A DNA stretch of 64,000 nt, taken from the NCBI GenBank assembly GCA_044369395.1, contig JBIPLZ010000421.1, positions 24,847 to 88,846 on the forward strand, written 5' to 3'. Position numbers and translations under genes: made by a program. Of this stretch, positions 30,555 to 55,399 are shown piece after piece (the stretch's first letter is position 1; every line of letters begins with the position of its first letter). Under the pieces are notes generated by a model, which was given only the letters and a program-made list of their open reading frames with translations, was not told the origin of the DNA and did not search any database. The DNA is from Flavobacteriales bacterium. Lineage in GTDB: Bacteria; Bacteroidota; Bacteroidia; M30B66.

Positions 30555-33404
30555 ATGTCATTATGGAATTACAGATTGCCAGCAATTGTTTGTTATAAAG
30601 ATAAGCAGCACATTGCTTACCGATTTACCAAGGGAGGAGTGAAAGTAAAGCTCCTTTCTTGGAAAGAAAAGTTTTCGGAGTCGTTCTTCAAAGCTGTTGG
30701 TACTCCTGATAAGAACAGTACCAATGTGATGAATGAACTTGAGGTTAAGACCTTCAACGGTCACGACTACTTCAAAGTAGAAGGCATTGTATTCTCCTGT
30801 TCGACAGGAGATGTAATGAAAGATAACAACATCATTAAGTTGTTTGATGGTGTTGAACTTACCGAAGGTACAGCTCTTAGAGAAGACCCTGAGAACGGGT
30901 TTTATAAGGGTATGTACAACGCTCATGCTCATAAGCGTCATTTAGAAGACAAACAAGCAGGTATTGTGCCTGCTGTTCCAACTACTACAGCACCAGCTTC
31001 GGTGTCTGTGGAGGTGTTTACTCAAGAACCTATAAAGGAGGTAGATAGAGTGAAGCAACATATTCAGCACTTGCTTGATACAGAACGGATCAAGGAGTTG
31101 AGCAGTAACACAAAGGTAAAGGGAGTCTACGGCAGGGATTATCATATGATCCGTGCTGTATCCAAAGGTAGGGCCTATAGGGTCTTCACAATGGACAAGG
31201 GCAAAGATTGCAAAGAAATCCTTCACGCTATGGAGGGCTTCTTAATAATTGCAGTCAACAAACCCGATACCGTATTATTTGCAGTGTCTGAAGAACCCAC
31301 TACGTTCTTAGCGTGGTTCAAGGATTTCGGCTTTGGGATCAAGAAAGGGCCAAAGCTTAGTAAACGGTTATCGCAATTCATTAGACCCTATCTAATGTTT
31401 GCAAGTTTTGGTCCAAAGATTTTTAACATTAAGATCTTAACCAAAGAAAATTGGTCGGGTGATTTCCGCACTGTTGACGGTGCAAATATCATAAGCACAA
31501 GAGCCTTTCGGTTTTTACTCGCAGTAACCGTAGGTAATCTTATAAAAGCCGGTGATCAAGAAGCTGCTGATCTCATTCAGCAGATGGGCGAAGAAAACGT
31601 TGTATTCAACGGCAGGCTTTGGTTGCCAGGATATGGATTCATCAAGGGTCAGTTCTTTGTCTCTCCTTTCATCAAGGAAGATTTTGTTATCCACGAGGGT
31701 AACATCAAGGATGAGATCCGAGTAAATTGTCCATACGCATACCTTGGTATGGACCCACAGCCCGGTAAACTTTCACTCGAGTCAAACGGTCAGGGGTGTA
31801 ACAACTTCCCACCACCGTTTGGGATTGGTCACGGTGTAAAAGTTGCTGATAGCTTGTTGTACAAGAATGTTGTCAAAGCTTGTGATAAAGCTTTAGAACG
31901 TCTTAAGACTGGCAAGCTTGAGACATCTCTCAAAGACCTCTTGATCTTGTTGCAAAACAACTTGATTGAGGAGAGTGAGACTACCAAGGGAAGACTTAAC
32001 CTTGCTCACTGGAGTGAGTTTGATTCTCCTAAATCTAACCCTGCATTGTTTGGCAGGGAAGCTAAAGATGGTCTACGTCGCATGGTTGACTTAGATGAGC
32101 TTAACATCAATGTCAAAGTTGATGGTGGCACATATTGCCAAACAGTTTCAGAGTCAGTAATGGCTTTGATTGGTGTGCCTACTATCATTGAGAAGGGTAC
32201 TGTCCAATACAATTCTCGGTGGATGGTTTACGTCATGAATGACGAGGACTACATTGCTAACCTCCCCAACCATGGTGGTCCTGACATGGACGATAAGTTC
32301 TGTCAGATACTAATGCGACAAGAAGGTTTTGATGGCATTCGATGCTTTATGTATCGGAATCCATCCGACAGGGGTGAGTACAATGTACTTACCTTCAAGG
32401 GTGAGCCACCTGTTAAAATCAGCGAAGTCATCTTACCAGCTAAGATGCCTCTTAAGCTAACCGAGCGGGATTGGAAGTTGCCAGAAGTTCCATCGGCTAC
32501 AAGGCCGAAAGTAGTTTACGTTGATGCAGATTATGCCATCGACGAGTTTTACAAAGAGCTCGATCTAGAGGGTGCAAACCCTGGATTGGGTATCAACGTA
32601 GGCAGCTTGTGGAACGCTTCTAACCCTGACGTGTCGCTTAGAAATAAGCACATGCCTAGCAATGAAGCTCAGGTTGACTCTACCGTTCAGCTTAAAGACG
32701 GTGTTGATATCGTCTTTATCAAAGGCTGCATGGTGAAAACTATGAAGGAGGTTCTTCAATCTACTTGGATGGTCGATCACCGCAGGTTGCGCAACGTCAA
32801 GAAGATGTTCAAGGATGACGCTCACTACAACTCTTGGGTTGCAAAACTCAAGAAGCAAGGCCGTCTTCCCGAAGCTGGCAACTGGTGGACTCGTCTAGTT
32901 ACTGAGTGTGACAAGGTGGTTAAAACCACTATTGAGAAGATTGACCAGACTATCGAGTCAGTCAGACTTCGTAACAATTACAACCTTATCAGCCCTACAC
33001 CTCTTAATGCTTCACAGCTTGAGATGGTTGCTAGGTATGTCTCCAAGATGATGCGTGTTCAAGGTGCGTGTGGTCGCACACCAGAGACTCGCAACACCGG
33101 ACTTAGAAATGCTAAGGACAGCATCACCCAGAAAGGCCACGAATGGATCGCCAAGGGTATGAAAGAACACTTCAACACCCTGTGTGATAAATTCGCAGCA
33201 TGGGGACTGGTTGAGCAAGACGGGGTCAAACTCAGCAGAACTCCTGTTCGTGTTGCTATTGCAATAGCGCACGTAGTTAACAACCACTCCTTCGTAGGTA
33301 GAGAAAACCCAATCGTCACGGATTGGCTAATGGATCGTAAGGAATACTTCAACACCTACTTGAGTATCCTTAAGACCTACAAGAAGGTTACTGCTACTAA
33401 GTAG
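30555..33404 (+). CDS. large hypothetical protein (949 aa)
   Basis: Long ORF with RBS AGGAG. It is preceded by tandem terminator-like hairpins. It contains a KVDGG motif but no convincing family assignment. Confidence 0.5.
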   Translation: MSLWNYRLPAIVCYKDKQHIAYRFTKGGVKVKLLSWKEKFSESFFKAVGTPDKNSTNVMNELEVKTFNGHDYFKVEGIVFSCSTGDVMKDNNIIKLFDGVELTEGTALREDPENGFYKGMYNAHAHKRHLEDKQAGIVPAVPTTTAPASVSVEVFTQEPIKEVDRVKQHIQHLLDTERIKELSSNTKVKGVYGRDYHMIRAVSKGRAYRVFTMDKGKDCKEILHAMEGFLIIAVNKPDTVLFAVSEEPTTFLAWFKDFGFGIKKGPKLSKRLSQFIRPYLMFASFGPKIFNIKILTKENWSGDFRTVDGANIISTRAFRFLLAVTVGNLIKAGDQEAADLIQQMGEENVVFNGRLWLPGYGFIKGQFFVSPFIKEDFVIHEGNIKDEIRVNCPYAYLGMDPQPGKLSLESNGQGCNNFPPPFGIGHGVKVADSLLYKNVVKACDKALERLKTGKLETSLKDLLILLQNNLIEESETTKGRLNLAHWSEFDSPKSNPALFGREAKDGLRRMVDLDELNINVKVDGGTYCQTVSESVMALIGVPTIIEKGTVQYNSRWMVYVMNDEDYIANLPNHGGPDMDDKFCQILMRQEGFDGIRCFMYRNPSDRGEYNVLTFKGEPPVKISEVILPAKMPLKLTERDWKLPEVPSATRPKVVYVDADYAIDEFYKELDLEGANPGLGINVGSLWNASNPDVSLRNKHMPSNEAQVDSTVQLKDGVDIVFIKGCMVKTMKEVLQSTWMVDHRRLRNVKKMFKDDAHYNSWVAKLKKQGRLPEAGNWWTRLVTECDKVVKTTIEKIDQTIESVRLRNNYNLISPTPLNASQLEMVARYVSKMMRVQGACGRTPETRNTGLRNAKDSITQKGHEWIAKGMKEHFNTLCDKFAAWGLVEQDGVKLSRTPVRVAIAIAHVVNNHSFVGRENPIVTDWLMDRKEYFNTYLSILKTYKKVTATK

Positions 33405-38853: not shown

Positions 38854-39003
38854 ATGTGGGCAAGTGAATATAGACAGCACCTTTCTAGTAGTAGTGAGCA
38901 ATCACACCCTACTAGATTGGTGCATTTTTTTGAAAGGTTTCTGTTTGGATTAGGGTTTCTCATATTAAAAACCGCTAAATACTTAACACAAAAGGAGCAT
39001 ACG

Positions 39004-40809
39004 ATGGCAACACTAGTTCATCCATCCGCAATTGAACAAGACGATAAGCTGCTGCATCGGCTAAAAAACTATAGGCTAGCTCCAATAGGAACACCTCTAA
39101 CAAAAGATGACACCTTAATCGTAAGCTGGGATTACAGACACAAGGCTGCAACACTTCTTCCTAGCCGTATGCTAACTGTCATTGTTCTTAATCCCACCAA
39201 CGAAAGCCCAATGATAACTGTCAAAGGTGTGCATGTAGAAAGAAGAAACGGATCTGTAATAATGCAGTCGTATGATAAAAGAGCACAGCAGAATATGTAC
39301 CGGCTCTTTAAAACCATGCCAAACACTTGGGGTGGTAAGACTTGGTTTAACATGGGCAAAGTTTATGACATCTCTAGAACACCATACGCATACCTTCTAG
39401 ATACCCGCCATGCAACTATCATAAACCCTTTCGGAGAAGAATACGAAAAAGATATCACAAGCTATTGTAGACCTATTGACTGCTTACCCTATGTCAGGGA
39501 AGGAAGAACCCCTCGTTACAAACTAACTGCTAACCAGACACCTCTCTTTAAAAGTCTTGCAGATGCTGTAGCAGGCAACGCTGTATCAACCGTAGAGTCT
39601 TTCTATACCACAGAGCTTGGAGAAGTTTCTTTCACTCTTAAGCAATGCTTAGATTACATGCCAAGAGATACAAGCGTAATGGCAGGGATTGCCAACTGGC
39701 CTTATGAGTTAGTACCACGAGCTTACTTAGAGTGGCTTGTAGCAGACGGAGATCTTGGCGACAGTGTAATGTCCACCGCACTACCTGGACCAAACGCTTT
39801 ACGAGATAGCATCTTATCCTTTCTTTCAGAGACTACTATCTTCAAGATGTACAACGGAACACTTGAAGAAGAAGGCAAACTAAAAGTAATCGGAAATACC
39901 AATGACAATCCCATGACTCGAAGCCTGCGTAAACAACACGTCAAGATGGATACAGAAGATAGAGATATGGTACACCGAGACTTCTGTACTTTCGGCTACT
40001 GGATCAAAGACACTTTCGTTCCAGCGGGAACTAGCAGCTACATACCTTTTGAAGCTCACGGGCCTGCAACTTGGCTTGAAGCTCATGATGGTAGAAGAGA
40101 TGCAGAGAGTCTTCCTAAACATCTTAAGACAGGACTTACTGAGTTTGAACGGCAAGAGAAATGGACTCCTACAGAAAAGGAAAACTACGATTGGAAGCCA
40201 GTACAAATAAGCACCAACGTAAACAAAGCATTAGAACATCTCTTTAACCTGCACCAAAGGCTAGATCTCTGGGAACAAAGACATGACTTTCTTCTTAGAA
40301 GAACCGAGCTTGAGATGAGTGAACGAGACAGGGAAGAAATGGACTGGGAGTTTAAAGAGCATGAGCTTGAAATGAAAAGAATCAAAAACGAGTATGTAGG
40401 TATCCTTAGCTTGCACAAAGATTCTATTCCCGCAGCTTGGGGAATCAAAGACCGGATTATTAAGCTTAGAACTGTAGCTAGTTATGATGCTAGGAAGATG
40501 GCAGATCTTATTGAAGACATGCTGGAATATGCAAGCTTAGAAGAAAAGCGTAGCGAAGAAGATCAAATGTACTGGATCTTAGTAACTCAAAAAGTGACAG
40601 AATGGAGAGAGTTTAAGCAAGAGCTAGATAAAGAAAAAGATAAACACTTAGAAGAAGCAAGGCTTATACGACCTGCTATACCTTGGAACATGATGAAAGA
40701 CTTAAACGTAAGCCAGACTGATGACGCTGCATCTTTAAGATGGGCAATTCGATTTGCCAAAACTCAAACCCCTAGCTTATCAAAAAGGAAATCCAAATGC
40801 TTCCAGTAA
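39004..40809 (+). CDS. large hypothetical protein (602 aa)
   Basis: Starts MATLVHPS after AAAAGGAGCATACG. The annotated upstream extension crosses a terminator and is unlikely to be translated. Confidence 0.45.
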   Translation: MATLVHPSAIEQDDKLLHRLKNYRLAPIGTPLTKDDTLIVSWDYRHKAATLLPSRMLTVIVLNPTNESPMITVKGVHVERRNGSVIMQSYDKRAQQNMYRLFKTMPNTWGGKTWFNMGKVYDISRTPYAYLLDTRHATIINPFGEEYEKDITSYCRPIDCLPYVREGRTPRYKLTANQTPLFKSLADAVAGNAVSTVESFYTTELGEVSFTLKQCLDYMPRDTSVMAGIANWPYELVPRAYLEWLVADGDLGDSVMSTALPGPNALRDSILSFLSETTIFKMYNGTLEEEGKLKVIGNTNDNPMTRSLRKQHVKMDTEDRDMVHRDFCTFGYWIKDTFVPAGTSSYIPFEAHGPATWLEAHDGRRDAESLPKHLKTGLTEFERQEKWTPTEKENYDWKPVQISTNVNKALEHLFNLHQRLDLWEQRHDFLLRRTELEMSERDREEMDWEFKEHELEMKRIKNEYVGILSLHKDSIPAAWGIKDRIIKLRTVASYDARKMADLIEDMLEYASLEEKRSEEDQMYWILVTQKVTEWREFKQELDKEKDKHLEEARLIRPAIPWNMMKDLNVSQTDDAASLRWAIRFAKTQTPSLSKRKSKCFQ

Positions 40810-42645: not shown

Positions 42646-43548
42646 ATGAAAGTAGTAGACTTATTTGCAGGAGCTGGAGGCTTTAGCACCGGAGCAGTAC
42701 AAGCTGGGTGTGAAGTTGTATGGGCTGCTAACCACTGGAAAGATGCGGTGCATGTACATGAGTGCAATCACCCCAAGACTTTCCACAGTTGTCAAGACTT
42801 ACAGCAAGCAGACTTTACTACCTTGCCACAGTACGATGTTCTGTTAGCCAGCCCCTCTTGCCAAGGGCATAGCAAAGCTCGGGGAGCGGATCAACCAAGA
42901 CATGATGCAGCAAGGAGTACAGCATGGGCTGTTGTTGCCTGCGTTGAAACCACCAGGCCCAAAGCTTTTGTAGTAGAGAATGTCACAGAGTTTTTAAGCT
43001 GGGAACTATTCCCACAATGGAAAGGCTGCATGGAAAAGCTTGGATATAACTTAGCTTCCAACATATTAAACGCTGCTGACTTTGGTGTGGCTCAATCTAG
43101 GATAAGAGTTTTTATTACCGGATCTAAAGCTCAACCTTTACAAGTTCAAACAAACCCATTTAAAAAACACATACCTTTTAAAGACTTAATTGAAGACGGG
43201 GATTATAAGTGGTCAACCGTTTCTGATAAAGCTGATAGCACTAAAAGAAAATGGGCTAACGGAATTAAAGACCACGGAGATAATTTCTTAATTGCCTACT
43301 ACGGATCTGAACGTGGGGGTAGAAGTATTAAGAAGCCCCTTGGAACAATAACCACGAAGGAAAAGTTTGCTCTTATCAATAGGGATAAGATGCGAATGCT
43401 TTCTTTGAGTGAATACAAAAACGCTATGGGATTCCCAGAAAAATACCTATTGCCTAAAAGCAAGAGCCTAGCACTTCACATGCTGGGCAATGCAGTCTGC
43501 CCTCCCGTTGCAAAAGAGATCCTAACCCAAATGAAAGAGTGTATTTAA
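42646..43548 (+). CDS. DNA (cytosine-5) methyltransferase
   Basis: Motif I DLFAGAGGFSTG, motif IV SPSCQGHS, motif VI ENV, motif VIII QSRIR. Confidence 0.8.
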   Translation: MKVVDLFAGAGGFSTGAVQAGCEVVWAANHWKDAVHVHECNHPKTFHSCQDLQQADFTTLPQYDVLLASPSCQGHSKARGADQPRHDAARSTAWAVVACVETTRPKAFVVENVTEFLSWELFPQWKGCMEKLGYNLASNILNAADFGVAQSRIRVFITGSKAQPLQVQTNPFKKHIPFKDLIEDGDYKWSTVSDKADSTKRKWANGIKDHGDNFLIAYYGSERGGRSIKKPLGTITTKEKFALINRDKMRMLSLSEYKNAMGFPEKYLLPKSKSLALHMLGNAVCPPVAKEILTQMKECI

Positions 43549-45959: not shown

Positions 45960-46304
45960 ATGAGCCACACACCAAGACCGTGGAAGCCAAGCCTCTTTAA
46001 TATTGTTACCAATGTTACCGGACTTATACAAGAAAAACCAAAGGCAACACCACTCAAAGTAGACAAGGGGTTGCTAGAAATACTCGATGATAATGAAAAC
46101 ACTGTTGCTTTCGTAAACCTAGAAGACACATCCCTAAGTGAAAACGATCTTGCCAACGCTAACCTCCTCGCAGCAGCACCAGAGTTGTTAGCAGCGTTAC
46201 GAGAATTGCTTTACGTAACAGAACCAACTTTCGACAACCGGCACGAAAGAGAAGCTGCTATCGATGCTATCAACAAAGCAACAGGAGAAGAAGATGCCCC
46301 TTGA
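45960..46304 (+). CDS. hypothetical protein
   Basis: 114-aa ORF. Confidence 0.35.
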   Translation: MSHTPRPWKPSLFNIVTNVTGLIQEKPKATPLKVDKGLLEILDDNENTVAFVNLEDTSLSENDLANANLLAAAPELLAALRELLYVTEPTFDNRHEREAAIDAINKATGEEDAP

Positions 46305-46560
46305 ACCTTTAACAAATCCAATAGATCTTGAACCTAATGTGCAAGACTTAATGAATAACTTTACAGCTGTAATTGAAAACGCTCGTATAGATGCTATGTG
46401 TTTATACCTTAGACTTAATAAAGAAACAGGGGATCAACAATGGGCTCTAAATGTATTAGATCCTTTAGACGAAATAGAAAACCTACTTAGACGTATTTAC
46501 AAAGCAAAAGCTTGTGCGTGGAAAAGAGGTTCAGATGGTGGAATTATTATATCAGATTAA
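46264..46560 (+). CDS. hypothetical protein
   Basis: 98-aa ORF overlapping the upstream gene. Confidence 0.3.
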   Translation: MLSTKQQEKKMPLEPLTNPIDLEPNVQDLMNNFTAVIENARIDAMCLYLRLNKETGDQQWALNVLDPLDEIENLLRRIYKAKACAWKRGSDGGIIISD

Positions 46561-46577
46561 CTAACAGGAGAATAATC

Positions 46578-47237
46578 ATGCCTAATTATTGCGAGAATGA
46601 ATTAAGAATACGTGGTAATAAAAAAGATGCTTTGGATTTTGTGGAAAAAATTAAACTAAAAGATAGACCTTTTTGTTACTCAGCGTTGTTTCCTATCCCA
46701 AAACCTTTGCAAGAAGTTACCTCAGGAAGCGAAGAAATTTATTATGAAGTCGTATATGGTAAACCACCAGACTGGGTTTTAACTCAAATGAAAGAAGCAG
46801 GGTTTGAAAATCCAGATAAAGAAACAATTATAACTTGGTATGCAAAAAGAAGCTTGTCAGCAAGCGATGCCGTAGAAAAAGTAAAAGCTATTGCAAATAA
46901 GTATAAACAAAACAAAGAAACCTACGGACATTTAAGTTGGTATGGTTGGTGCATATCTAACTGGGGAACTAAATGGGGTGCTTGTGATAGCGAACTGTTG
47001 TGCTCAGAAGAAATAAAACTTAAAGGTAAAGAATCTTGGGAAGTAGAATATAGATTTAATACTGCATGGAGTCCACCTAAAGAAGCTTTGTTGCATATCA
47101 GTGAGATGTTTCCAAACCTAAGTTTTGTTTTGAAATACTGGGAAGGTGGTTGCTGCTTTAAAGGAGTCTTCAAATTTGAGAACGGTGAAGTCTTTAAAGA
47201 TATAACTAAAGAATATACCGGCCACCGTGGTGGTTAA
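46578..47237 (+). CDS. hypothetical protein, paralog of 44626..45180
   Basis: MPNYCENELRIRG, SNWGTKWG, FNTAWSPPKEALLHIS, YWEGGCCFKGVF. RBS ACAGGAG. Confidence 0.45.
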   Translation: MPNYCENELRIRGNKKDALDFVEKIKLKDRPFCYSALFPIPKPLQEVTSGSEEIYYEVVYGKPPDWVLTQMKEAGFENPDKETIITWYAKRSLSASDAVEKVKAIANKYKQNKETYGHLSWYGWCISNWGTKWGACDSELLCSEEIKLKGKESWEVEYRFNTAWSPPKEALLHISEMFPNLSFVLKYWEGGCCFKGVFKFENGEVFKDITKEYTGHRGG

Positions 47238-48285: not shown

Positions 48286-48750
48286 ATGCCACACGTATCG
48301 TTAAGATTAATGCGACAAGATGATATTCCCGCAGTATCTGATATAGGAGCTAGATGTTATAACTCATCCTACTACGAGAGCGACGAATCATTTTTATCTA
48401 AGTGGTGTGGGTATCCTAAAGGTTGTTATGTTGTAGCGGTCAGGGGAAAAGTAATTGCTTATGCGATTACATTCCCCTATTTCAAAGAAGAAGTATTCCC
48501 TTTAAATAGTATGTACACTCCTTTCTTTGCACCTACAGGACATTACTTCCACGACATCAGCGTTTGCCCTGGCTATCGTAAACAAGGATATGCAGGGATG
48601 CTAATAAACAAAGTATGGAATAGCTCTCCTCTTCCCAAGTCCTTGGTAGCTGTAAACAACAGTCAAGAGTTCTGGGAAAGGTATGGGTTTGTGCTAACCC
48701 GCTATGTCAAGTACGGTAAAAGTAAAGCCTCTTACATGCAGTGTTTGTAA
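48286..48750 (+). CDS. GNAT family N-acetyltransferase
   Basis: RKQGYAGMLI (acetyl-CoA binding motif A) and FWERYGF. Confidence 0.55.
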   Translation: MPHVSLRLMRQDDIPAVSDIGARCYNSSYYESDESFLSKWCGYPKGCYVVAVRGKVIAYAITFPYFKEEVFPLNSMYTPFFAPTGHYFHDISVCPGYRKQGYAGMLINKVWNSSPLPKSLVAVNNSQEFWERYGFVLTRYVKYGKSKASYMQCL

Positions 48751-48806
48751 GAAAAACGTATACATATTTCTGACAAAAAAAACTTCTTAAGAAAGGAGGC
48801 ACGGAG

Positions 48807-49871
48807 ATGCCCTATTCAGAACTTCCAACTTCTTATACTCTTTACAAGCTATGGATAGAAGAAAAGAAAAAAGAAGGTAAAGCTAATCATTTAAAAAAGT
48901 TACAAGCCTGTTGTTCCAACCCTATTGATTTTTATACATTTTTTATTAAAGAGTTTACAGGTATGGACTCTATTATGGCTTCTCGTTGTTATGCAGAAAA
49001 AGCATGGTATAAAGTTGGATGTCCATACTATAACATTCATCCAAATTTTATATCCAAGTTATGCAACTGCAACCTATCAAAAATACCAGCTTCCCTTTTT
49101 AAAATGCCACACGAGTTAGAATCTATTCATGTAAGATTTAAAGATTTTCATTCTGAATTCGCATACAGTAGTTCAAAAACAAATAATCTTCGATGGGCAA
49201 CTTCTATATTGGTTTATGAAATACCTGAAAATGAATATAGTAAACGAACAATATCTATTAGTTTAGATATGTTAATGAATCAAAACGACATAGGTAAAAG
49301 TTTAAATATTTATGAACTAAGAACACAAAAAAAAGACGATAGATCTTTATGCATATTTAATATTGTACTTGAAAAAAATCAAAGTTTACAAGACGCTATC
49401 AAAATAGCTATTAGTAAACAGTGTGATAAAAAAGGAATGTCGCTGCCAAGTGATTCTAAGTATGAGATATTAATTAAAAACGTATTAAGCCTTTGCAGCA
49501 CTATTGGATTTCTTTCTGACAATCCTACTATTTGTGAGCCAGATATTCTTGCTGCGGATAGACACCTAATTGAAAAGTCTAACCCTCAAGAACTAGAAGC
49601 TCTGCACCAGAAAGCAAAGAACAAAAGAAAATACGGTTGGAACATTGGTACTGATCGTATGTTTGTAGGACCGCAACCTTTTCAGTTAGCAAACAAATCC
49701 CAAGCTGCTGAAGGAAAAGAACGGGAGTATGCACACATTAGAGCAGGGCATCCTCACGCTGTTCGGTATGGCAAAGGCAAAGAGCTAGTAAAGATTATGT
49801 GGTTTGTACCACTTACTGTAAGACCAGACCTTCCTTTTAAGATAGAACAACAGACCCAAACCACTTTGTAA
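48807..49871 (+). CDS. hypothetical protein (354 aa, AT-rich)
   Basis: Long ORF with RBS AAGGAGG and low GC. No recognisable motif. Confidence 0.45.
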   Translation: MPYSELPTSYTLYKLWIEEKKKEGKANHLKKLQACCSNPIDFYTFFIKEFTGMDSIMASRCYAEKAWYKVGCPYYNIHPNFISKLCNCNLSKIPASLFKMPHELESIHVRFKDFHSEFAYSSSKTNNLRWATSILVYEIPENEYSKRTISISLDMLMNQNDIGKSLNIYELRTQKKDDRSLCIFNIVLEKNQSLQDAIKIAISKQCDKKGMSLPSDSKYEILIKNVLSLCSTIGFLSDNPTICEPDILAADRHLIEKSNPQELEALHQKAKNKRKYGWNIGTDRMFVGPQPFQLANKSQAAEGKEREYAHIRAGHPHAVRYGKGKELVKIMWFVPLTVRPDLPFKIEQQTQTTL

Positions 49872-49883
49872 CAGGAGATAAAG

Positions 49884-50048
49884 ATGAATGAAAATGATGC
49901 TTTTGAAAAATATAAAAAACTTTTTGATGACCCTTCTATAGCTGCTGGATATGAAGCAATATTTAAAGAAGGTTATAAAGCAGGGGTGCGAGATACTTTG
50001 TCTTATCAAGACTTTATAAAAAACATAAAGGTTAAAAATGATAATTAA
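49884..50048 (+). CDS. small hypothetical protein (54 aa)
   Basis: ATG after ACAGGAGATAAAG. Verified to end at TAA 50046-50048. Confidence 0.35.
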   Translation: MNENDAFEKYKKLFDDPSIAAGYEAIFKEGYKAGVRDTLSYQDFIKNIKVKNDN

Positions 50049-50415
50049 AACCTGCGACCTTATAGGTATAGAGCTAGACTTTGTAGTAGCCCAACTTGAA
50101 GCAGTTGATGTAGATGAAGATTGCTATACCTTTGATTGTAACTACAACCCACATAGTAGGTACAGTCCTTCAACAAACTGGGAAGAAGCAGGGGGTATTA
50201 TTGAACGAGAGAACATTGCACTCACTGGTATCTCCTTCCCTTGGTTTGCTACGGAACTAGGCTGGTGGGGACACATCAAAGACGTACGTAACGTTGGAGC
50301 TACTCCTCTTGTTGCAGCAATGCGATGCTATGTGCAAAGCAAATGGGGAAAAGAAGTAAACATGAAAACGGTTTATGAAGCACTTCAAATTGAAAAGGAT
50401 TGGAACAATGTTTAA
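50038..50415 (+). CDS. hypothetical protein
   Basis: 125-aa ORF. Confidence 0.4.
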   Translation: MIIKTCDLIGIELDFVVAQLEAVDVDEDCYTFDCNYNPHSRYSPSTNWEEAGGIIERENIALTGISFPWFATELGWWGHIKDVRNVGATPLVAAMRCYVQSKWGKEVNMKTVYEALQIEKDWNNV

Positions 50416-50583
50416 CAATCCTAATTTAAAACTATCATCCCGAAATCTGTTTCGTGATCATAGAGCAAAGCCAATGTTTATAGGGGTTTGCCATGCGGTT
50501 TTTTGCTATGCTTGCATTGGCTTTTGAATATGGTAGTCTAGTTGAGTCTTGTAGTTACAAACTCTTAAGGGGTATTTAAAAAG

Positions 50584-50880
50584 ATGACTGAGTTTACACC
50601 AGAAGAAAAGATTAATTTTTTAATGGCAATAGATATTATAAATATTCAAGACAGTATAAAAAATACTAATTACGAATTTGTTTGTTCTGTACTTAGCGGA
50701 AAGAATCCTAATTATACACCGTATTCAAGAATGTCAACTGAAGCTTTAAATGAAAGGTTTGATATCATTTATAACAACAGAAATCATTTTAAAAATACTG
50801 TTAAGATTCATAAGCTAACCAGAGATTTAAATTTACTTTGTAAGCCTAAAGGGGATGTAAGCAATGAAACCAAAGCCTAA
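50584..50880 (+). CDS. hypothetical protein (AT-rich)
   Basis: 98-aa ORF overlapping the RHH gene by 17 nt. Confidence 0.35.
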   Translation: MTEFTPEEKINFLMAIDIINIQDSIKNTNYEFVCSVLSGKNPNYTPYSRMSTEALNERFDIIYNNRNHFKNTVKIHKLTRDLNLLCKPKGDVSNETKA

Positions 50881-51103
50881 AAGTAAGACTCCAAAAGAGC
50901 CAATTAGATTAACAAAAGATGACAACCTTTTAATTGGTGTCATACTACATAACAACAAACAAGCAACTAGAACCGAAGCTGTTAGGATGGGTTTAATTTT
51001 AGCTGCCCAACAATACGGAAATGTTAATTGCCTTATTATGCCTGCAATTAAAAAAAAGATTAGAAAAGAAAAACTTGAAGAATCTAAAAAAAATAAAAAG
51101 TAA
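50864..51103 (+). CDS. ribbon-helix-helix (CopG/Arc-like) DNA-binding protein
   Basis: PIRLTKDDNLLIGVILHNNKQATRTEAVRMGLILA follows the beta-strand plus two-helix RHH pattern. Lys-rich tails. Confidence 0.4.
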   Translation: MKPKPKSKTPKEPIRLTKDDNLLIGVILHNNKQATRTEAVRMGLILAAQQYGNVNCLIMPAIKKKIRKEKLEESKKNKK

Positions 51104-51195
51104 TAATATTTTTTTTTATTAATAATTGATTCCTATTTAAGATGAAGTATAGTCATATTGCTGCTTGAAGATTGGCGTCCTCCGGCAGTAATAAA

Positions 51196-51240
51196 CCTCA
51201 GGGGGGCAACCTTGAGGTTTATTTATTTAGATACAATATT
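51196..51240 (+). terminator. rho-independent terminator ending the plus-strand block
   Basis: AAACCTCA-GGGGGGCAACC-TTGAGGTTT followed by ATTTATTT. Confidence 0.55.
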
Positions 51241-51254
51241 AAAAGGATATACTA

Positions 51255-51533
51255 GTGGGACATTTTATTTTTGTTGTACTTCATATTTTGGCTTTCTTGT
51301 GCGGGTTCTTTGGCTTGTTTATTACTATACCACTTCATCTTATATACGCAGTTATGCTTACTCAAGCTAACAACTCGAGAACAAATGTTGTTAAAAAATC
51401 AGAACCGCAAAATATGGGTAGGTTGATAGGATTGTGTATCCGTGTATTAATGATTTTCATTGTTGGAATTGTAGTGTTTGTTTTGTTCTTAGGACTTTAT
51501 TACAGAATAAATGGTCGTGCTCCTTGGCATTAA
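51255..51533 (+). CDS. small membrane protein (GTG start)
   Basis: Three hydrophobic helices. Follows the plus-strand terminator. Confidence 0.3.
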   Translation: MGHFIFVVLHILAFLCGFFGLFITIPLHLIYAVMLTQANNSRTNVVKKSEPQNMGRLIGLCIRVLMIFIVGIVVFVLFLGLYYRINGRAPWH

Positions 51534-51584: not shown

Positions 51585-51836
51585 TTACTTTGGTATACGG
51601 CTTTGCATTAAAGTAAGAACCAAGAAGGTTGCGGTAGCTGCACCCGTTGCGTAGGCTATCACTTCAAAGATATCATCTTGCTTACTGTAATACTTGAATA
51701 GGAATACAGATAACACGGCAATAATAAAGCCACACAGGGAAGCGTATACTATCTTGTTATTAAAGATAAAATGCTTTTCCATAGTAAGGAACATTGTCCA
51801 TAGCGCACCACATAAGAAGCATAGTATGTATCTCAT
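51585..51836 (-). CDS. holin-like small membrane protein
   Basis: 83 aa with 3 predicted TM helices. It is the last gene of the minus-strand block. Confidence 0.3.
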   Translation of the reverse strand: MRYILCFLCGALWTMFLTMEKHFIFNNKIVYASLCGFIIAVLSVFLFKYYSKQDDIFEVIAYATGAATATFLVLTLMQSRIPK

Positions 51837-51980: not shown

Positions 51981-52175
51981 TTACAAAGCTATACCTCTCT
52001 CTGGTGGAGATGTAGGATCTCCGGTACGAGGATCAAAAGGCCAATCTTCAATGTCAGGACAGATACATTCCCTTGCATGTTCGTCATGGATAGAACAGTA
52101 CCATTCTTCGCAAGACTCACAAATAAACCACACAGGCTCCCCACGATGGGGAGTCTTTTTTTTTTGATCTTTCAT
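51981..52175 (-). CDS. small Cys-rich zinc-ribbon protein
   Basis: CESCEEWYCSIHDEHARECICPD. Its ATG overlaps the PhoH stop (ATGA). Confidence 0.4.
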   Translation of the reverse strand: MKDQKKKTPHRGEPVWFICESCEEWYCSIHDEHARECICPDIEDWPFDPRTGDPTSPPERGIAL

Positions 52176-52831
52176 AACCGTTTAAGAACTTCTCTCACCA
52201 AGGGGTGACGAAGAGACTCTTCCTCCGTGAATGTATGTGTGCAAGCCGTTGCTAAAGAAGACAAGCGTTTCATTACGCTAAGTATGTCACAAGATGTTTT
52301 GTCAGGGTTGTGTGGTTTTACATCAGTTTGATCAGGGTCACATGAGATAAGGACTTTGCTGTTGTTGCCTACACGGGTAAGAAACATTTTGAGTTGAGCG
52401 TAAGTTGCGTTTTGAGCTTCGTCTAAAAAGAGTACGCAGTCTTCAAAAGTGTCGCCACGCATGTAGGCTAAGGGCTGAAAGAGCACGGCTTCTTCCGGCA
52501 ATTTGTAGGTTAATCTTTTTATTAACCGACGTATTGGATCAAAGTACGGGCTGATTTTTTCGTCTACAGTACCAGGCAAAAAGCCTAGAGTGTCACCAAC
52601 CTCTACGATAGGTCGAACTACTAAGATTTGTTTTTTGTTTCCAGATAAAAGTTCTTGGATAGCACAAGCTAAGGCACAGTGCGTCTTGCCACAACCAGCA
52701 GGGCCAGTCAGAAAGATGAGGTCGTGAGTTGGGTAGTCTTTGGCTACTTTAATTTGGGTTGGGTTGGCGGGTTTGAAATGAAATACCGTTTCGTTGAGGG
52801 ATGCAGAGGTATTAGGTTTCTTTTTTGCCAT
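52172..52831 (-). CDS. phoH: PhoH-like ATPase
   Basis: Walker A GPAGCGKTH, LFLDEAQN, and the characteristic GxxxxVVRP / DxxQxD PhoH core. Confidence 0.8.
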   Translation of the reverse strand: MAKKKPNTSASLNETVFHFKPANPTQIKVAKDYPTHDLIFLTGPAGCGKTHCALACAIQELLSGNKKQILVVRPIVEVGDTLGFLPGTVDEKISPYFDPIRRLIKRLTYKLPEEAVLFQPLAYMRGDTFEDCVLFLDEAQNATYAQLKMFLTRVGNNSKVLISCDPDQTDVKPHNPDKTSCDILSVMKRLSSLATACTHTFTEEESLRHPLVREVLKRL

Positions 52832-52845
52832 GATGCTTTCCTTTA

Positions 52846-54387
52846 TTAAAAGTATTCGCCTTCAAGAAAGAGTTTCTTTTTGGGTCTAACACGGAGAGCT
52901 TCTAAGCAGGCCATCCCTAAAGAGATAGCACGGTCATCATGTCGATTAGGTAGATGATCAATCCTAAAACCATAAGACATTACTTTGGTAATGAGTTCGC
53001 AAAACTCATCAACTAAAGTGTGCTTTCCACCGCCTTGTATAAAGATTGTTCCGCAATCGGGATACCAGAAAAGCTTTTTATTAACGACTAAAGATCTTAC
53101 TGTTTGAGCCATCTCATAGTTAGACTTGCCACCGCGAGCTTCAAACTTATGAACAGGAAGCGTTCCTGTAAACTTCTGAAACGTGGATTCCATTTGGTAA
53201 GGGTCAATTACTAAAGAGGTAAGTTCATACTTAGATCGAATGTCATCTATCCAGCGTTCAACGGCTTCAATCTTAACAGGGTTTTCTCGAGAACCCTGCA
53301 TAACGTCCATGCGATCTACATGAAGGGTGTCATCTTCATTGCGGTGTATAAGGGTGCATACAGTTCGATCACGTACTGGACCGTAGTCAATTGAGGCAAT
53401 ATAGGAGACTCCGCTTTGTCCAATAACGTGGGGTGTATAGTCATTAGATACACACTCATCAACTTCTTTACGTGTAAGAAAGTTGCAACCATCAGACGGA
53501 TCAACCCACTCATTATCAAATAAACGGCGAGCTAACTGAGGCGGTACGGTTCGACGAAGGTCATCCATAGCTGCGGAGTCCATCCATGAAGCTAGCTTGC
53601 CCGGTGCTTCGTAAACAAACCAGCGGGGGGAAGACTTAAAAGTTTCAAGCGTGTCATGTTGCCATGTGTACTTAAGGCCTGCGTTGGTGATAACTATAAG
53701 GACTGAGCCTGGTCGTTTCTCTCTACCGGAAAGAAGAGCGTTCCATAGGTCTGGTTTATGCCAATGGGTTAGCTCATCCACAATGAGAAGGTCACCACGA
53801 ATACCGTGAGAAGAAGCAGCGTCTGCTGCAAGGATCTCAATAGAGGAGCCGTTAATGCCGTGGATCTTCCAATTGCGAAAGTCCAGTCGTTTAGCAAGCC
53901 AAGGATTAAGGCGGGATTCATCTTGCATGGCTTTAGCTAATAAGCCTGCTTGCTCTTTGTCGGCTGCTGCAACGTATCCGGTAAAGGAGCGGGTGTTAAA
54001 GGCTAAGGCCCAGTTGATAAGCCTTGCTATGAGAGAAGATTTGTCGTGACCTTTGGGAAGAGTAAGCCAAAAGTTTCGGTGGGCTGCATAGTCTGGTCGT
54101 ATGTTCGCTACGTGCTCTATTGCAGGGAGGATCTTGTTAACAAGAGCCCATTGCCATGGTTCTGCAATTTCTCGAAACAAAGTAGGATCTGGACGTGAGT
54201 CAATGATGACGTGATTGAGATAACGAAAACAAGAAGTTGAAGAAGCTGACTCTGCTAAGAGGTATGCTTGTTGCAATCCTCTACGCAGCTCAAATGTCGT
54301 CTTCGAGTTTTGTATTGCTCGTATGTCGTTTGATGAGTTCTTTTGCATCTTTGTCGGGGAGTTGATAGGAAAGGATTTCTGTTTCAT
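52846..54387 (-). CDS. terL: terminase large subunit
   Basis: P-loop-like LPKGHDKSS, Walker B LLIVDE, and a C-terminal RNaseH-like nuclease segment (ASIDYG...DHLPNRHDDRAISLGMA). Confidence 0.75.
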   Translation of the reverse strand: MKQKSFPINSPTKMQKNSSNDIRAIQNSKTTFELRRGLQQAYLLAESASSTSCFRYLNHVIIDSRPDPTLFREIAEPWQWALVNKILPAIEHVANIRPDYAAHRNFWLTLPKGHDKSSLIARLINWALAFNTRSFTGYVAAADKEQAGLLAKAMQDESRLNPWLAKRLDFRNWKIHGINGSSIEILAADAASSHGIRGDLLIVDELTHWHKPDLWNALLSGREKRPGSVLIVITNAGLKYTWQHDTLETFKSSPRWFVYEAPGKLASWMDSAAMDDLRRTVPPQLARRLFDNEWVDPSDGCNFLTRKEVDECVSNDYTPHVIGQSGVSYIASIDYGPVRDRTVCTLIHRNEDDTLHVDRMDVMQGSRENPVKIEAVERWIDDIRSKYELTSLVIDPYQMESTFQKFTGTLPVHKFEARGGKSNYEMAQTVRSLVVNKKLFWYPDCGTIFIQGGGKHTLVDEFCELITKVMSYGFRIDHLPNRHDDRAISLGMACLEALRVRPKKKLFLEGEYF

Positions 54388-54907: not shown

Positions 54908-55399
54908 TCAAGTCGTGTATTCAAACAAGTATCCATTTTCTGTTGGACACTCGTATATATTTTTTAAAATCTTAACGCACTTAAAAGCGTTTTCTTTTAA
55001 AAACAAATGGGCAACTAAATCGGATTCTCTAACTACAGAAGTTATTTTGCAGGGATCGTATTGAGTCTTTGAAAAGTCTTTAGCCCATTTAAGCATAGCT
55101 GAACCGTTACCACGTCTACGCATTTTTGGGTGTACAGTCATAGACCAGATAACAACTTCTTTTTTCTTTTCGTTTATCTCTAAAGCGATATAACATATAG
55201 GGGATTTGTCATACTCGAGAAGGACTATCTTAAGTTCATTCTTTTTAAATAGGTTTTCAAAATCTTCATATGTCCAAAGGTCTTCAGAGCCAGAAGCCAT
55301 TTCAAGAAGAAGAAGTTTGTCGATGTCCGCTACCTTTGCTATTACAGCCACGGCAATCTTATCCGAAATCTCAGGTGATAGGTTGTCAGGGGGTAACAT
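54908..55399 (-). CDS. GNAT family N-acetyltransferase
   Basis: VHPKMRRRGNGSAMLKWA (motif A). Confidence 0.5.
   Translation of the reverse strand: MLPPDNLSPEISDKIAVAVIAKVADIDKLLLLEMASGSEDLWTYEDFENLFKKNELKIVLLEYDKSPICYIALEINEKKKEVVIWSMTVHPKMRRRGNGSAMLKWAKDFSKTQYDPCKITSVVRESDLVAHLFLKENAFKCVKILKNIYECPTENGYLFEYTT

What the first reader, a model, noticed from the sequence alone, without database searches (positions are those of the whole stretch)
48286..51103. AT-rich accessory island with GNAT acetyltransferase, 354-aa unknown, and an overlapping gene pair ending in an RHH DNA-binding protein
GC drops sharply across about 48.8-51.1 kb (and also across the 908-aa gene at 25656-28382), suggesting recent horizontal acquisition. 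The island encodes a GNAT (motif A RKQGYAGML), a 354-aa protein without recognisable motifs, and 50584-50880 overlapping by 17 nt with a ribbon-helix-helix protein (IRLTKDD...TRTEAVRMGL). The GNAT/RHH combination and the overlapping small gene pair are typical ingredients of toxin-antitoxin or abortive-infection-like cargo, or of their phage-borne counter-measures. A 10-bp inverted repeat (50467-50476 and 50515-50524) lies just upstream as a possible operator.
Basis: partly seen in the sequence, partly recalled or inferred. Interest (0 to 1): 0.55.

Follow-up and report, generated by a model that had tools for sequence, protein, structure and literature searches.

The report
Phage accessory genes with AcrVA2-like protein
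This stretch is the variable accessory end of the early-gene block of an uncultured ~95-kb phage: its "unknown" 354-aa protein is a distant relative of the anti-CRISPR AcrVA2, and the small overlapping gene pair looks like a self-regulated accessory mini-operon rather than a toxin-antitoxin system.

Summary
The ORFs, the 17-nt overlap and the 10-bp inverted repeat are at the stated coordinates. The GC drop is real but modest and patchy: 0.34-0.35 against a window mean of 0.39, the 6th-11th percentile.

GNAT and RHH are not a toxin-antitoxin pair: four genes separate them here and ten in a relative.

The 79-aa protein is plausibly a ribbon-helix-helix protein, by its model and sequence pattern, but no family match is significant. 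It is always the last gene of a short unit that begins with a highly conserved non-coding block and ends at a strong terminator. The cargo between them is swapped in relatives. The 98-aa family also occurs without any RHH gene.

My best reading is a phage counter-defence/accessory region with an acr-aca-like, RHH-regulated mini-operon. It is a new member of known kinds. Targets and host are unknown.

The parts
48286..48750 (+). GNAT-family N-acetyltransferase (154 aa), first gene of a GNAT/AcrVA2-like pair
   Evidence: Pfam Acetyltransf_7 E 2e-7 and Acetyltransf_1 E 2.8e-7, both above gathering score. The closest NCBIfam model is YlbP-like PRK13688, far below its cutoff. No AcrVA5 or toxin-type GNAT appears among the PDB sequence hits. 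It is adjacent to the AcrVA2-like gene in the window and in L001-L004. GC 0.41, the window average.
48807..49871 (+). AcrVA2/FinQ-superfamily protein (354 aa)
49884..50048 (+). 54-aa ORF; in relatives it is the in-frame N-terminal extension of the NinX-like protein
   Evidence: It belongs to a cluster whose representative, P0019, is a 176-aa fusion of this ORF with the NinX-like protein. It overlaps the next gene by 11 nt.
50038..50415 (+). NinX-like small early protein (125 aa)
   Evidence: Pfam PF10765 Phage_P22_NinX E 1.4e-15; phrog_4389 E 2e-19.
50436..50458 (.). Conserved inverted repeat / hairpin ATCCCGAAA-TCTG-TTTCGTGAT at the start of the regulatory region
   Evidence: Present in the window, L011/L013, L006 and twice in L005. 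Its single mismatch is repaired on different sides in L005 copy 1 and in L006. RNA fold -7.7 kcal/mol, z -2.6. Unique in the window. Absent from L003.
50467..50524 (.).
   Evidence: A perfect inverted repeat; 1.9% of spacer shuffles give one. The left arm is not conserved or compensated in L003, L005 or L006; the right arm lies inside the conserved core. It is probably not a functional pair.
50498..50575 (+). Conserved non-coding core directly upstream of the 98-aa gene: candidate promoter/operator or 5' UTR. It contains TGCyATGC direct repeats, TATGGTAGTCTAG and the palindrome TTGTA-GT-TACAA.
   Evidence: Near-invariant in all relatives. In L006 (positions about 380-425) it is 42/45 identical although the downstream genes are unrelated, and there it follows a terminator. 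The motifs are unique in the window. Function is inferred.
50584..50880 (+). 98-aa protein, member of a small phage-restricted family of 80-98-aa proteins; variable 'cargo' of the mini-operon
   Evidence: Only 4 clusters in the word-indexed search. 14 representatives among 1.84 billion proteins with a profile. The family alignment shows a conserved N-terminal motif EEKxxxLMAxDI...GDY..C.IL.G..Y. Remote members are acidic, pI 4-5. No Pfam, PHROG, NCBIfam, PADLOC or PDB match.
50864..51103 (+). 79-aa basic protein (pI 10.3), probable ribbon-helix-helix DNA-binding regulator; conserved last gene of the + strand block
   Evidence: The AF2 model shows an extended N-terminus, then helices 18-30, 36-51 and 60-77. 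The Foldseek top list includes the RHH proteins NikR, ParD2, MazE-mt1 and SegB, but none is significant. The sequence pattern IRLTKDD...TRTEAVRMGL fits strand, helix A and the N-cap of helix B (direct reading). There are 6 homologous clusters, all in this phage group. It holds the same terminal position in L003, L006 and L011.
51190..51223 (+). Intrinsic-terminator-like hairpin ending the + strand block
   Evidence: A 14-bp stem, -20.3 kcal/mol, z -4.0, with 0 of 200 shuffles as stable, followed by UUUAUUUAUUU. The equivalent hairpin is present in L006 (I6, 101).

Best explanation
The region is the plastic, accessory end of the long + strand (early/middle) gene block of an uncultured ~95-kb tailed phage. 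It faces the convergent packaging module (PhoH, TerL). It holds two functional units.

(1) A co-oriented GNAT acetyltransferase plus a 354-aa AcrVA2/FinQ-superfamily protein. By analogy with AcrVA2, the 354-aa protein most likely recognises a specific target protein through its variable N-terminal and middle parts. Through its near-invariant C-terminal H-x-R-x-x-H domain it would then shut down that target's expression (translation-dependent loss of its mRNA). This would serve the phage against a host defence or a competing mobile element. The target here is unknown and need not be Cas12a. The fold and motif relationship is shown; the activity is inferred.

(2) A self-contained mini-operon. 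It consists of a conserved about 140-nt regulatory region (50436-50575), a variable cargo gene (here the 98-aa protein), a conserved 79-aa RHH-type DNA-binding protein translationally coupled to it, and a strong terminator (51190-51223). I infer that the RHH protein is the autoregulator of this unit, as Aca proteins are for acr operons (including the recently described RHH-type Aca14). I infer that the 98-aa protein is an early accessory, possibly anti-defence, protein.

A 54-aa ORF and a NinX-like gene fill the variable slot between the two units. The region is not a toxin-antitoxin or abortive-infection module.
For: Phage context: portal, TerL and PhoH are present; the same proteins occur on contigs of 83-108 kb; no cultured relative was found.

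AcrVA2 relationship:
- PF26125 is recorded on all 39 homologues.
- Foldseek's only significant PDB hits are AcrVA2.
- Collinear anchors W67~W79, EPDI~EPDI, HIRAGHPH~HIRRGHWH, with 53/260 aligned positions identical.
- H286/R288/H291 are essential for AcrVA2 activity and W79 is important (bioRxiv 10.1101/2022.11.29.518452).
- Within the family the C-terminus (305-345) is 0.85 conserved, against 0.29-0.33 for residues 1-60 and 113-215. This matches the published picture of a conserved C-terminus and a divergent N-terminus.
- The low-confidence C-terminal part of the model matches the flexible C-terminal domain of the crystal structure.
- Another homologue sits next to an ArdC-like antirestriction gene.

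Accessory character: gene content between conserved flanks differs in L003 and L011-L013.

Mini-operon:
- The conserved non-coding block lies upstream of the unit in all variants, including L006 where the cargo is three unrelated genes and the block follows a terminator.
- The RHH is always the last gene.
- There is a strong terminator.
- The cargo and RHH genes recombine independently: L003 is 95% / 87.5% nt identical to the window for the two genes, L011 is 75% / 96%.
- An RHH-type Aca (Aca14) in the same operon position, binding an inverted repeat in the promoter, is documented (bioRxiv 10.64898/2026.07.27.740549).
Against: - No activity has been measured for any gene.
- Identity to AcrVA2 is only 14-20%.
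- D89 of AcrVA2 aligns with H78.
- The local Pfam library gave no hit for any of the 39 family members, and profile searches of PDB sequences missed AcrVA2. The relationship therefore rests on structure, motifs and a precomputed annotation.
- The RHH fold has no statistically significant sequence or structure match.
- The promoter and operator are inferred from conservation only; the sigma-70-type scan found no site inside the core.
- Nothing links the 98-aa protein to defence inhibition except position and family traits.
- The host, and thus any defence target, is unknown.
Confidence: 0.6

Rival explanations
1. The 98-aa/79-aa overlapping pair is a type II toxin-antitoxin (or abortive-infection) module. 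The 98-aa protein would be the toxin and the RHH protein the antitoxin and autorepressor. Alternatively the GNAT would be a TacT/AtaT-like toxin neutralised by the RHH.
For: The pair consists of two small genes, translationally coupled through a 17-nt overlap that is conserved in L003 and L011. The second gene has an RHH-like fold of the kind common in antitoxins; ParD2 and MazE are among the top structural neighbours. A GNAT gene lies in the same block.
Against: - GNAT and RHH are not adjacent: four genes apart here, ten in L003, and the RHH occurs without the GNAT in L011 and L006.
- The RHH shows no DUF1778 or other antitoxin family match, and the 98-aa protein shows no toxin family match.
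- The RHH occurs with entirely different upstream genes in L006.
- 98-aa homologues occur without any RHH in L014-L016.
- The two genes have discordant divergence, which implies independent exchange.
- The remote 98-aa relatives are small acidic proteins in arrays of phage early genes.
Confidence: 0.07
2. The 79-aa RHH protein is a general phage transcription regulator rather than a local autoregulator. It could be an early-to-late switch factor or a repressor of early promoters, made at the end of the early block. The 98-aa gene would then be an unrelated early gene that happens to precede it.
For: The RHH gene is the conserved last gene of the early-oriented block in all relatives, whatever precedes it. 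It is far more widely kept in the group than the GNAT/AcrVA2-like genes. L006 carries a second, minimal 48-aa RHH-like ORF just upstream, which suggests RHH-based regulation is used repeatedly in these phages.
Against: The motifs of the conserved upstream block occur only once in the 64-kb window, so no regulon of similar sites is visible. The conserved block travels with the RHH-terminated unit even when the cargo is replaced, which fits local control. About a third of the genome lies outside the window and could not be searched.
Confidence: 0.2
3. The whole stretch is a recently acquired foreign island, recognisable by its low GC, and has no functional coherence.
For: GC of 48800-51103 is at the 6.5th percentile of same-length windows. 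Gene content at this site differs between related phages.
Against: Composition is patchy: the GNAT and NinX-like genes are at the window average. Long genes elsewhere, including the 3134-aa gene, are equally AT-rich at third positions. The 98-aa/RHH unit and its regulatory block are conserved across all relatives examined, so they are old residents rather than a recent import. No integrase, transposase or flanking direct repeats were seen.
Confidence: 0.1

Closest known systems
AcrVA2 (Moraxella bovoculi prophage anti-CRISPR; PDB 7CI1/7CI2) and its superfamily, including FinQ of IncI/F-like plasmids (Pfam PF26125 AcrVA2-like)
   Different: Identity is only 14-20%. D89 is replaced by an invariant His (H78). 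The N-terminal and middle regions, which recognise the target in AcrVA2, are not alignable in detail, so the target is probably different. No AcrVA1-like partner is present. The host and any Cas12a are unknown. This subfamily was found only in metagenomic and viral contigs, not in GTDB representative genomes or in the plasmid and phage collections searched.
acr-aca operons, in particular those with the RHH-type regulator Aca14 (bioRxiv 10.64898/2026.07.27.740549)
   Same: The architecture matches: a conserved promoter region with repeats, variable small cargo gene(s), and a conserved small DNA-binding protein as last gene. The regulator has an RHH-like core plus an extra C-terminal helix. An anti-defence-type gene (AcrVA2-like) lies in the neighbourhood.
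   Different: No sequence relationship to Aca14 was tested or shown. The cargo matches no known Acr. Binding and repression have not been demonstrated. The conserved element is longer (about 140 nt) and more complex than a single inverted repeat over the -10 element.
GNAT/RHH type II toxin-antitoxin systems (TacAT, AtaRT, KacAT, ItaRT)
   Same: A GNAT acetyltransferase and an RHH-like protein are encoded in the same gene block.
   Different: In those systems the RHH (DUF1778) antitoxin gene lies directly upstream of the GNAT toxin gene and is co-transcribed with it. Here the two are 2.1 kb and four genes apart, in the opposite order, and occur independently in relatives. There is no DUF1778 match.
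nin region of lambdoid phages such as P22 (NinX and Y8K6-like small early genes)
   Same: The region is a run of small, co-oriented, often overlapping accessory early genes between the replication-type genes and the late genes. It includes a NinX homologue here and Y8K6-like and DUF1281_C genes just upstream. Gene content varies between related phages.
   Different: The genome is much larger (about 95 kb) and unrelated to lambdoid phages in its core genes. The region additionally carries the AcrVA2-like gene, the GNAT gene and the RHH-terminated unit.

Membership tests
AcrVA2/FinQ superfamily (PF26125) | Three-domain AcrVA2 fold | tested here: met
AcrVA2/FinQ superfamily (PF26125) | Conserved C-terminal HxR(xxH) motif: H286, R288 and H291 are essential for activity | tested here: met
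   Window H310-I-R312-A-G-H315-P-H aligns with AcrVA2 H-I-R-R-G-H-W-H. R312, G314, H315, P316 and H317 are invariant and H310 is near-invariant in 39 homologues. Residue roles are taken from bioRxiv 10.1101/2022.11.29.518452.
AcrVA2/FinQ superfamily (PF26125) | Conserved N-proximal W79 and D89 | tested here: inconclusive
   W67 aligns with W79 and is near-invariant. D89 aligns with H78, which is invariant in this subfamily, so that residue is not kept.
AcrVA2/FinQ superfamily (PF26125) | Match to the Pfam model at its threshold | tested here: inconclusive
   The precomputed annotation lists PF26125 for all 39 homologues ('weak' for the window protein). The Pfam copy available for scanning returned no hit for any of the 39, so the score could not be reproduced.
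AcrVA2/FinQ superfamily (PF26125) | Activity: binds a target's N-terminal polypeptide and lowers its mRNA; inhibits Cas12a | not testable with these tools
   This needs expression, RNA-seq and pull-down experiments. The host and its defence systems are unknown.
GNAT superfamily | GNAT domain with acetyl-CoA-binding motif A (R/Q-x-x-G-x-G/A) | tested here: met
   Acetyltransf_7 31.8 bits (cutoff 27) and Acetyltransf_1 31.3 bits (cutoff 20.7). R-K-Q-G-Y-A is present in the sequence.
GNAT/RHH type II TA (TacAT/AtaRT-like) | RHH (DUF1778) antitoxin gene directly adjacent to and co-transcribed with the GNAT toxin gene | tested here: not met
   Four genes and 2.1 kb separate them in the window, ten genes in L003, and the RHH is present without the GNAT in L006 and L011. 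There is no DUF1778 or other Pfam/NCBIfam hit on the 79-aa protein.
Type II toxin-antitoxin pair (98-aa + 79-aa) | Two small co-transcribed genes, often overlapping | tested here: met
   The 17-nt overlap is conserved in L003 and L011.
Type II toxin-antitoxin pair (98-aa + 79-aa) | The partners co-occur as a unit, and the toxin belongs to a recognisable toxin family | tested here: not met
   In L006 the RHH follows unrelated genes. 98-aa homologues occur without an RHH. The two genes diverge discordantly. No Pfam, NCBIfam, PADLOC, PHROG or PDB match was found for the 98-aa family.
Type II toxin-antitoxin pair (98-aa + 79-aa) | Toxicity of one partner, neutralised by the other | not testable with these tools
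   This requires expression assays.
Ribbon-helix-helix (RHH/MetJ-Arc) superfamily (79-aa protein) | N-terminal strand followed by two helices (beta-alpha-alpha), forming a dimer | tested here: inconclusive
   The monomer AF2 model (pLDDT 73.6) shows extended residues 1-17 and helices 18-30 and 36-51, plus an extra helix 60-77. The RHH proteins NikR, ParD2, MazE-mt1 and SegB are among the top Foldseek hits, but all have E of 2.3 or more. The dimer was not modelled.
Ribbon-helix-helix (RHH/MetJ-Arc) superfamily (79-aa protein) | Significant sequence or profile match to an RHH family | tested here: not met
   There are no RHH hits in Pfam, NCBIfam, PHROGs or PDB sequences. hhalign against CopG and Arc, whose sequences were recalled from memory, was uninformative.
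acr-aca operon (Aca14-like, RHH regulator) | Regulator gene is the conserved last gene of a short operon whose upstream cargo varies | tested here: met
   The cargo is the 98-aa gene in the window, L003 and L011, and 104/137/93-aa genes in L006. The RHH is last in all, followed by a terminator.
acr-aca operon (Aca14-like, RHH regulator) | Conserved inverted repeat or operator in the operon's promoter | tested here: inconclusive
   There is a conserved about 75-nt core with the palindrome TTGTA-GT-TACAA and TGCyATGC repeats, plus an upstream inverted repeat at 50436-50458. No promoter was mapped, and the sigma-70-type scan found none in the core.
acr-aca operon (Aca14-like, RHH regulator) | Sequence homology to Aca14, and cargo that is a known Acr or anti-defence protein | not tested
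   The Aca14 sequence (WP_005725436.1) was not available in the tools. The cargo has no match in the libraries searched.

The most novel reading that the evidence does not exclude
The conserved-leader / swappable-cargo / RHH / terminator cassette is a new RHH-regulated anti-defence locus, an Aca-like family unrelated in sequence to known Aca proteins. Its 98-aa cargo would found a new family of small phage anti-defence proteins. In parallel, the conserved GNAT + AcrVA2-like pair would act together on one host target: target recognition by the AcrVA2-like protein, coupled to acetylation and mRNA loss.
Probability: 0.15. Interest if true: 0.65.

Novelty: new member of a known kind. Interest (0 to 1): 0.35.

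Why it matters
AcrVA2 is so far the only bacterial example of a protein that recognises a nascent polypeptide and triggers loss of that polypeptide's mRNA. Its homologues are widespread on mobile elements, mostly without Cas12a, and their targets are unknown. This phage lineage adds a divergent, metagenome-only subfamily with an intact catalytic-type motif and a hypervariable recognition part. That makes it a usable test case for asking what else the family targets.

The RHH-terminated mini-operon, with its highly conserved leader and exchangeable cargo, is a ready 'guilt-by-association' handle for finding new accessory or anti-defence genes in this group of uncultured phages.

Neither point is surprising to a specialist. 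The main value is a corrected annotation: this is counter-defence-type cargo, not a toxin-antitoxin system.

Tried and rejected
- Sequence searches of the 354-aa protein and of its 39-member profile against PDB sequences found nothing relevant. Only structure comparison recovered AcrVA2.
- The local Pfam library gave no PF26125 hit for any of the 39 homologues, so the precomputed annotation could not be reproduced.
- tblastn of the protein and of the family's C-terminal consensus against the plasmid and phage collections gave no match, so FinQ could not be compared directly.
- A bridge through Shewanella phage Y11 ORF43 (annotated AcrVA2) gave only weak hhalign scores: E 0.003-0.005, probability 7-11%.
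- Scans of GTDB genomes with TerL and with the AcrVA2-like profile found no relatives, so the host remains unknown.
- There was no DNA similarity to deposited phages, and TerL has only remote protein matches.
- No tRNA or Rfam family is present in the window.
- Folding the whole 168-nt spacer as RNA is not exceptional (z -1.4).
- RHH: hhalign against CopG and Arc sequences recalled from memory was uninformative, and a profile search of PDB sequences returned an irrelevant hit.
- 98-aa family: a weak match to the Cpl-7 cell-wall-binding repeat (5i8l, E 0.047, per-domain E about 50) was rejected as chance.
- PADLOC found no defence-system hits.
- A specific link of the GNAT to the acetyltransferase anti-CRISPR AcrVA5 was considered, but AcrVA5 is not among the PDB sequence hits. 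The link is unsupported.
- A pattern search of IMG/VR for the conserved leader found only one further contig, of the L011 type.
- A possible small RHH ORF near 43.56 kb, suggested by a tblastn hit, was checked and rejected.

Full report
**Context.** The window is part of an uncultured tailed phage.
- A portal gene (24288-25628, minus strand), TerL (52846-54387, minus strand) and PhoH (52172-52831, minus strand) are present.
- The same proteins occur on metagenomic contigs of 83-108 kb.
- There is no DNA similarity to any deposited phage, and TerL has only remote matches.
- A long run of + strand genes (25656 to 51103) converges on the minus-strand packaging genes. The finding is the last 2.8 kb of that + strand block.

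**Check of the observation.**
- Two genes between the 354-aa and 98-aa genes were not mentioned. One is a 54-aa ORF (49884-50048). The other is a NinX-like gene (50038-50415; PF10765, E 1.4e-15; phrog_4389, E 2e-19).
- Composition: the window mean GC is 0.392. The finding region is 0.348, and 48800-51103 is 0.337, i.e. the 11th and 6.5th percentiles of same-length windows.
- The drop is two dips separated by a stretch at the window average.
- By gene, GNAT and NinX are average (0.41). The 354-aa, 54-aa, 98-aa and RHH genes are low (0.27-0.34).
- Third-position GC of the low genes (0.15-0.24) is matched by the 3134-aa gene (0.17) and the 908-aa gene (0.17). Low GC therefore does not single out an island.

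**The 354-aa protein is an AcrVA2/FinQ-superfamily member.**
- Thirty-nine homologues, down to 28% identity, were found, and all carry precomputed PF26125 'AcrVA2-like'.
- The family has a nearly invariant C-terminus...ELEYAHIRxGHPHAVRYGxGKxLVKIMWxVPxTVRxDLPFK. Mean conservation is 0.85 for residues 305-345, against 0.29-0.33 for residues 1-60 and 113-215.
- An AlphaFold2 model built on this alignment has pLDDT 78, with low confidence only in the C-terminal 65 residues.
- Foldseek against PDB gave three significant hits, all AcrVA2 (7ci2_A E 5.6e-5; 7ci1 E 1.3e-4 and 2.8e-4). The next hit had E 0.4.
- I recovered the AcrVA2 sequence from an alignment with the annotated AcrVA2 of Shewanella phage Y11. 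Adding it to the family alignment gives collinear anchors: W67~W79, YYNIH~IYQLD, IPASLF~TPTSIF, ICEPDIL~VAEPDIT, KYG...NIGTD~KTG...QIGER and HIRAGHPH~HIRRGHWH. In total 53 of 260 aligned positions are identical.
- Marino et al. (bioRxiv 10.1101/2022.11.29.518452) showed that H286, R288 and H291 are required for AcrVA2 to lower Cas12a mRNA. They also showed that W79 is important, that the C-terminus is the conserved part of the family and the N-terminus diverges, and that homologues (including FinQ) are widespread on mobile elements, mostly without Cas12a.
- All three essential residues are present here as H310, R312 and H315. D89 is not kept and aligns with H78.
- The flexible, loosely packed C-terminal domain described for the crystal structure fits the low-confidence C-terminus of the model.
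- Caveats: sequence-only searches of PDB missed AcrVA2. The Pfam copy I could scan returned nothing for any family member. hhalign scores are weak.
- I rate superfamily membership at about 0.9. That the protein lowers expression of a specific target by the AcrVA2 mechanism is inference, at about 0.5. The target is unknown.

**GNAT.**
- The domain and motif A are confirmed.
- There is no specific similarity to toxin-type GNATs, to AcrVA5 or to any equivalog.
- The GNAT gene is directly upstream of the AcrVA2-like gene (56-nt spacer, with no terminator predicted between them) in the window and in relatives L001-L004.
- Other AcrVA2-like genes have no GNAT neighbour. One sits next to an ArdC-like antirestriction gene.
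- A functional link between the two genes is possible but unsupported.

**Accessory character from comparative genomics.**
- In L003 (a 99-kb relative) the GNAT/AcrVA2-like pair is followed by eight other genes (a WGR-domain ligase and others) instead of the 54-aa/NinX genes.
- In the L011-L013 and L017 group, the GNAT and AcrVA2-like genes are absent from the 6 kb upstream of the 98-aa gene.
- The region is therefore a variable slot between conserved flanks. This supports 'accessory' much better than composition does.

**The 98-aa/79-aa pair.**
- The 79-aa protein is very basic (pI 10.3).
- Its model shows an extended N-terminus followed by helices 18-30 and 36-51, plus a C-terminal helix 60-77.
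- The segment IRLTKDD-NLLIGVILHNN-KQA-TRTEAVRMGLILAAQ fits the strand, helix A and helix B pattern of RHH proteins, including the T-R-T-E cap of helix B. This is a direct reading of the sequence.
- RHH proteins (NikR, ParD2, MazE-mt1, SegB) are among the top Foldseek neighbours, but no hit is significant. No sequence library recognises the protein.
- I rate RHH as probable, about 0.75.
- Its homologues are confined to this phage group.
- The 98-aa protein has four close clusters. With a profile it has 14 representatives among 1.84 billion proteins. These are 80-98-aa, mostly acidic proteins sharing an N-terminal motif. They are encoded in arrays of small phage early genes next to Y8K6- and NinX-like genes, without an RHH.
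- In L006/L007 the RHH homologue (68% identical) is preceded by three unrelated genes of 104, 137 and 93 aa.
- Divergence is discordant. Against L003 the 98-aa gene is 95% identical in nucleotides and the RHH gene 87.5%. Against L011 the figures are 75% and 96%.
- Neither partner needs the other, no toxin or antitoxin family is hit, and GNAT and RHH are never adjacent. I therefore reject the toxin-antitoxin reading (about 0.07).

**The upstream element.**
- Its left arm is not conserved or compensated in L003, L005 or L006.
- What is conserved is a core of about 75 nt immediately upstream of the start codon (about 50498-50575). It contains TGCyATGC direct repeats, TATGGTAGTCTAG and the palindrome TTGTA-GT-TACAA.
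- In most relatives there is also an upstream inverted repeat, ATCCCGAAA-TCTG-TTTCGTGAT (50436-50458). Its one mismatch is repaired on opposite sides in two relatives, and it is duplicated in L005.
- In L006 the same block (42/45 identical in the core) precedes a different set of cargo genes and follows a canonical terminator. It therefore behaves as the start of a separate transcription unit.
- These motifs occur once in the window.
- The unit ends at a strong hairpin with a U-rich tail at 51190-51223 (-20.3 kcal/mol, z -4.0), which is conserved in L006.
- A conserved leader, exchangeable cargo, a conserved small DNA-binding protein as last gene and a terminator make up the architecture of acr-aca operons.
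- An RHH-type Aca (Aca14), with an additional helix contacting DNA and binding inverted repeats in its promoter, was described in July 2026 (bioRxiv 10.64898/2026.07.27.740549).
- I therefore propose that the 79-aa protein autoregulates this unit (about 0.5) and that the 98-aa protein is an early accessory, possibly anti-defence, protein (about 0.25).
- The promoter itself is not mapped, and the sigma-70-type scan found no site in the core.

**Verdict.**
The region is accessory and is counter-measure-type cargo; it is not a toxin-antitoxin or abortive-infection module.
- The main gain is the identification of the 354-aa 'unknown' as a divergent AcrVA2/FinQ-family protein with an intact H-x-R-x-x-H motif.
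- A second gain is the recognition of a conserved-leader/RHH cassette that can serve as a handle for gene discovery in this phage group.
- Both are new members of known kinds.
- The host and the targets remain unknown.

Noticed in passing
window 49884-50415: The 54-aa ORF and the NinX-like gene overlap by 11 nt in different frames here. In related contigs they form one 176-180-aa protein (P0019, P0021) with a different junction sequence. The gene is either split here or fused there.
   Followed up: partly
window 54908-55399 (- strand): A second GNAT acetyltransferase (163 aa; RimI-like, TIGR01575 E 3.6e-13, below cutoff) lies next to the probable small terminase and TerL. It is conserved at this position in all relatives (L001, L003, L006).
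   Followed up: partly
window 51255-51533 (+) and 51585-51836 (-): Two small predicted membrane proteins (92 and 83 aa) lie in the convergent junction between the early block and the packaging genes. They have weak holin-like hits only. The 83-aa protein has 38 cluster members.
   Followed up: no
L006 42-238: In this relative a minimal 48-aa RHH-like ORF (SFRLLPADLEMITKVQKLYSLPTKIAALRLALAILLKK) followed by a canonical terminator lies just upstream of the conserved leader. No counterpart was found in the window by tblastn.
   Followed up: partly
L005 355-640; L011 5815-6000: The leader is modular. The unit containing the inverted repeat is tandemly duplicated in L005. A 57-nt segment carrying a second GGGGTTTG...GGTAGTCT motif is present in L005 and L011 but absent from the window.
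   Followed up: partly
window 50584-51103 vs L003 and L011: The two genes of the pair have discordant identity to relatives (95% / 87.5% against L003; 75% / 96% against L011). This indicates recombination between them. The 98-aa gene shows little third-position excess of differences (25/18/31), which suggests fast protein evolution.
   Followed up: partly
window 25656-28382, 6494-15898, 30555-33404, 38854-40809: Several very large genes (908, 3134, 949 and 651 aa) have no Pfam match at E of 1e-3 or better. The 908-aa and 3134-aa genes have GC3 of about 0.17, as low as the 'island' genes.
   Followed up: no
window 42646-43548: A C-5 cytosine DNA methyltransferase (PF00145, E 2.6e-52) lies in the same early block. 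It is a likely anti-restriction function. A relative (L006) has another DNA methylase inserted between PhoH and TerL.
   Followed up: no
window 51981-52175 (- strand): A 64-aa Cys/His-rich ORF (weak treble-clef zinc-finger hit) overlaps the end of PhoH by 4 nt. It is conserved in all relatives.
   Followed up: no
window 46264-47237: Just upstream of the finding lie a DUF1281_C (Api92-like ferredoxin-like domain) protein and, according to precomputed hits in L001, a P22 Y8K6-like gene. Together with NinX they give the region a 'nin-region' flavour.
   Followed up: no
tools (vs 23): Precomputed annotations list PF26125 for all 39 homologues. The Pfam library available for scanning returns no hit for any of them, so the model seems to be missing from that copy.
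   Followed up: yes
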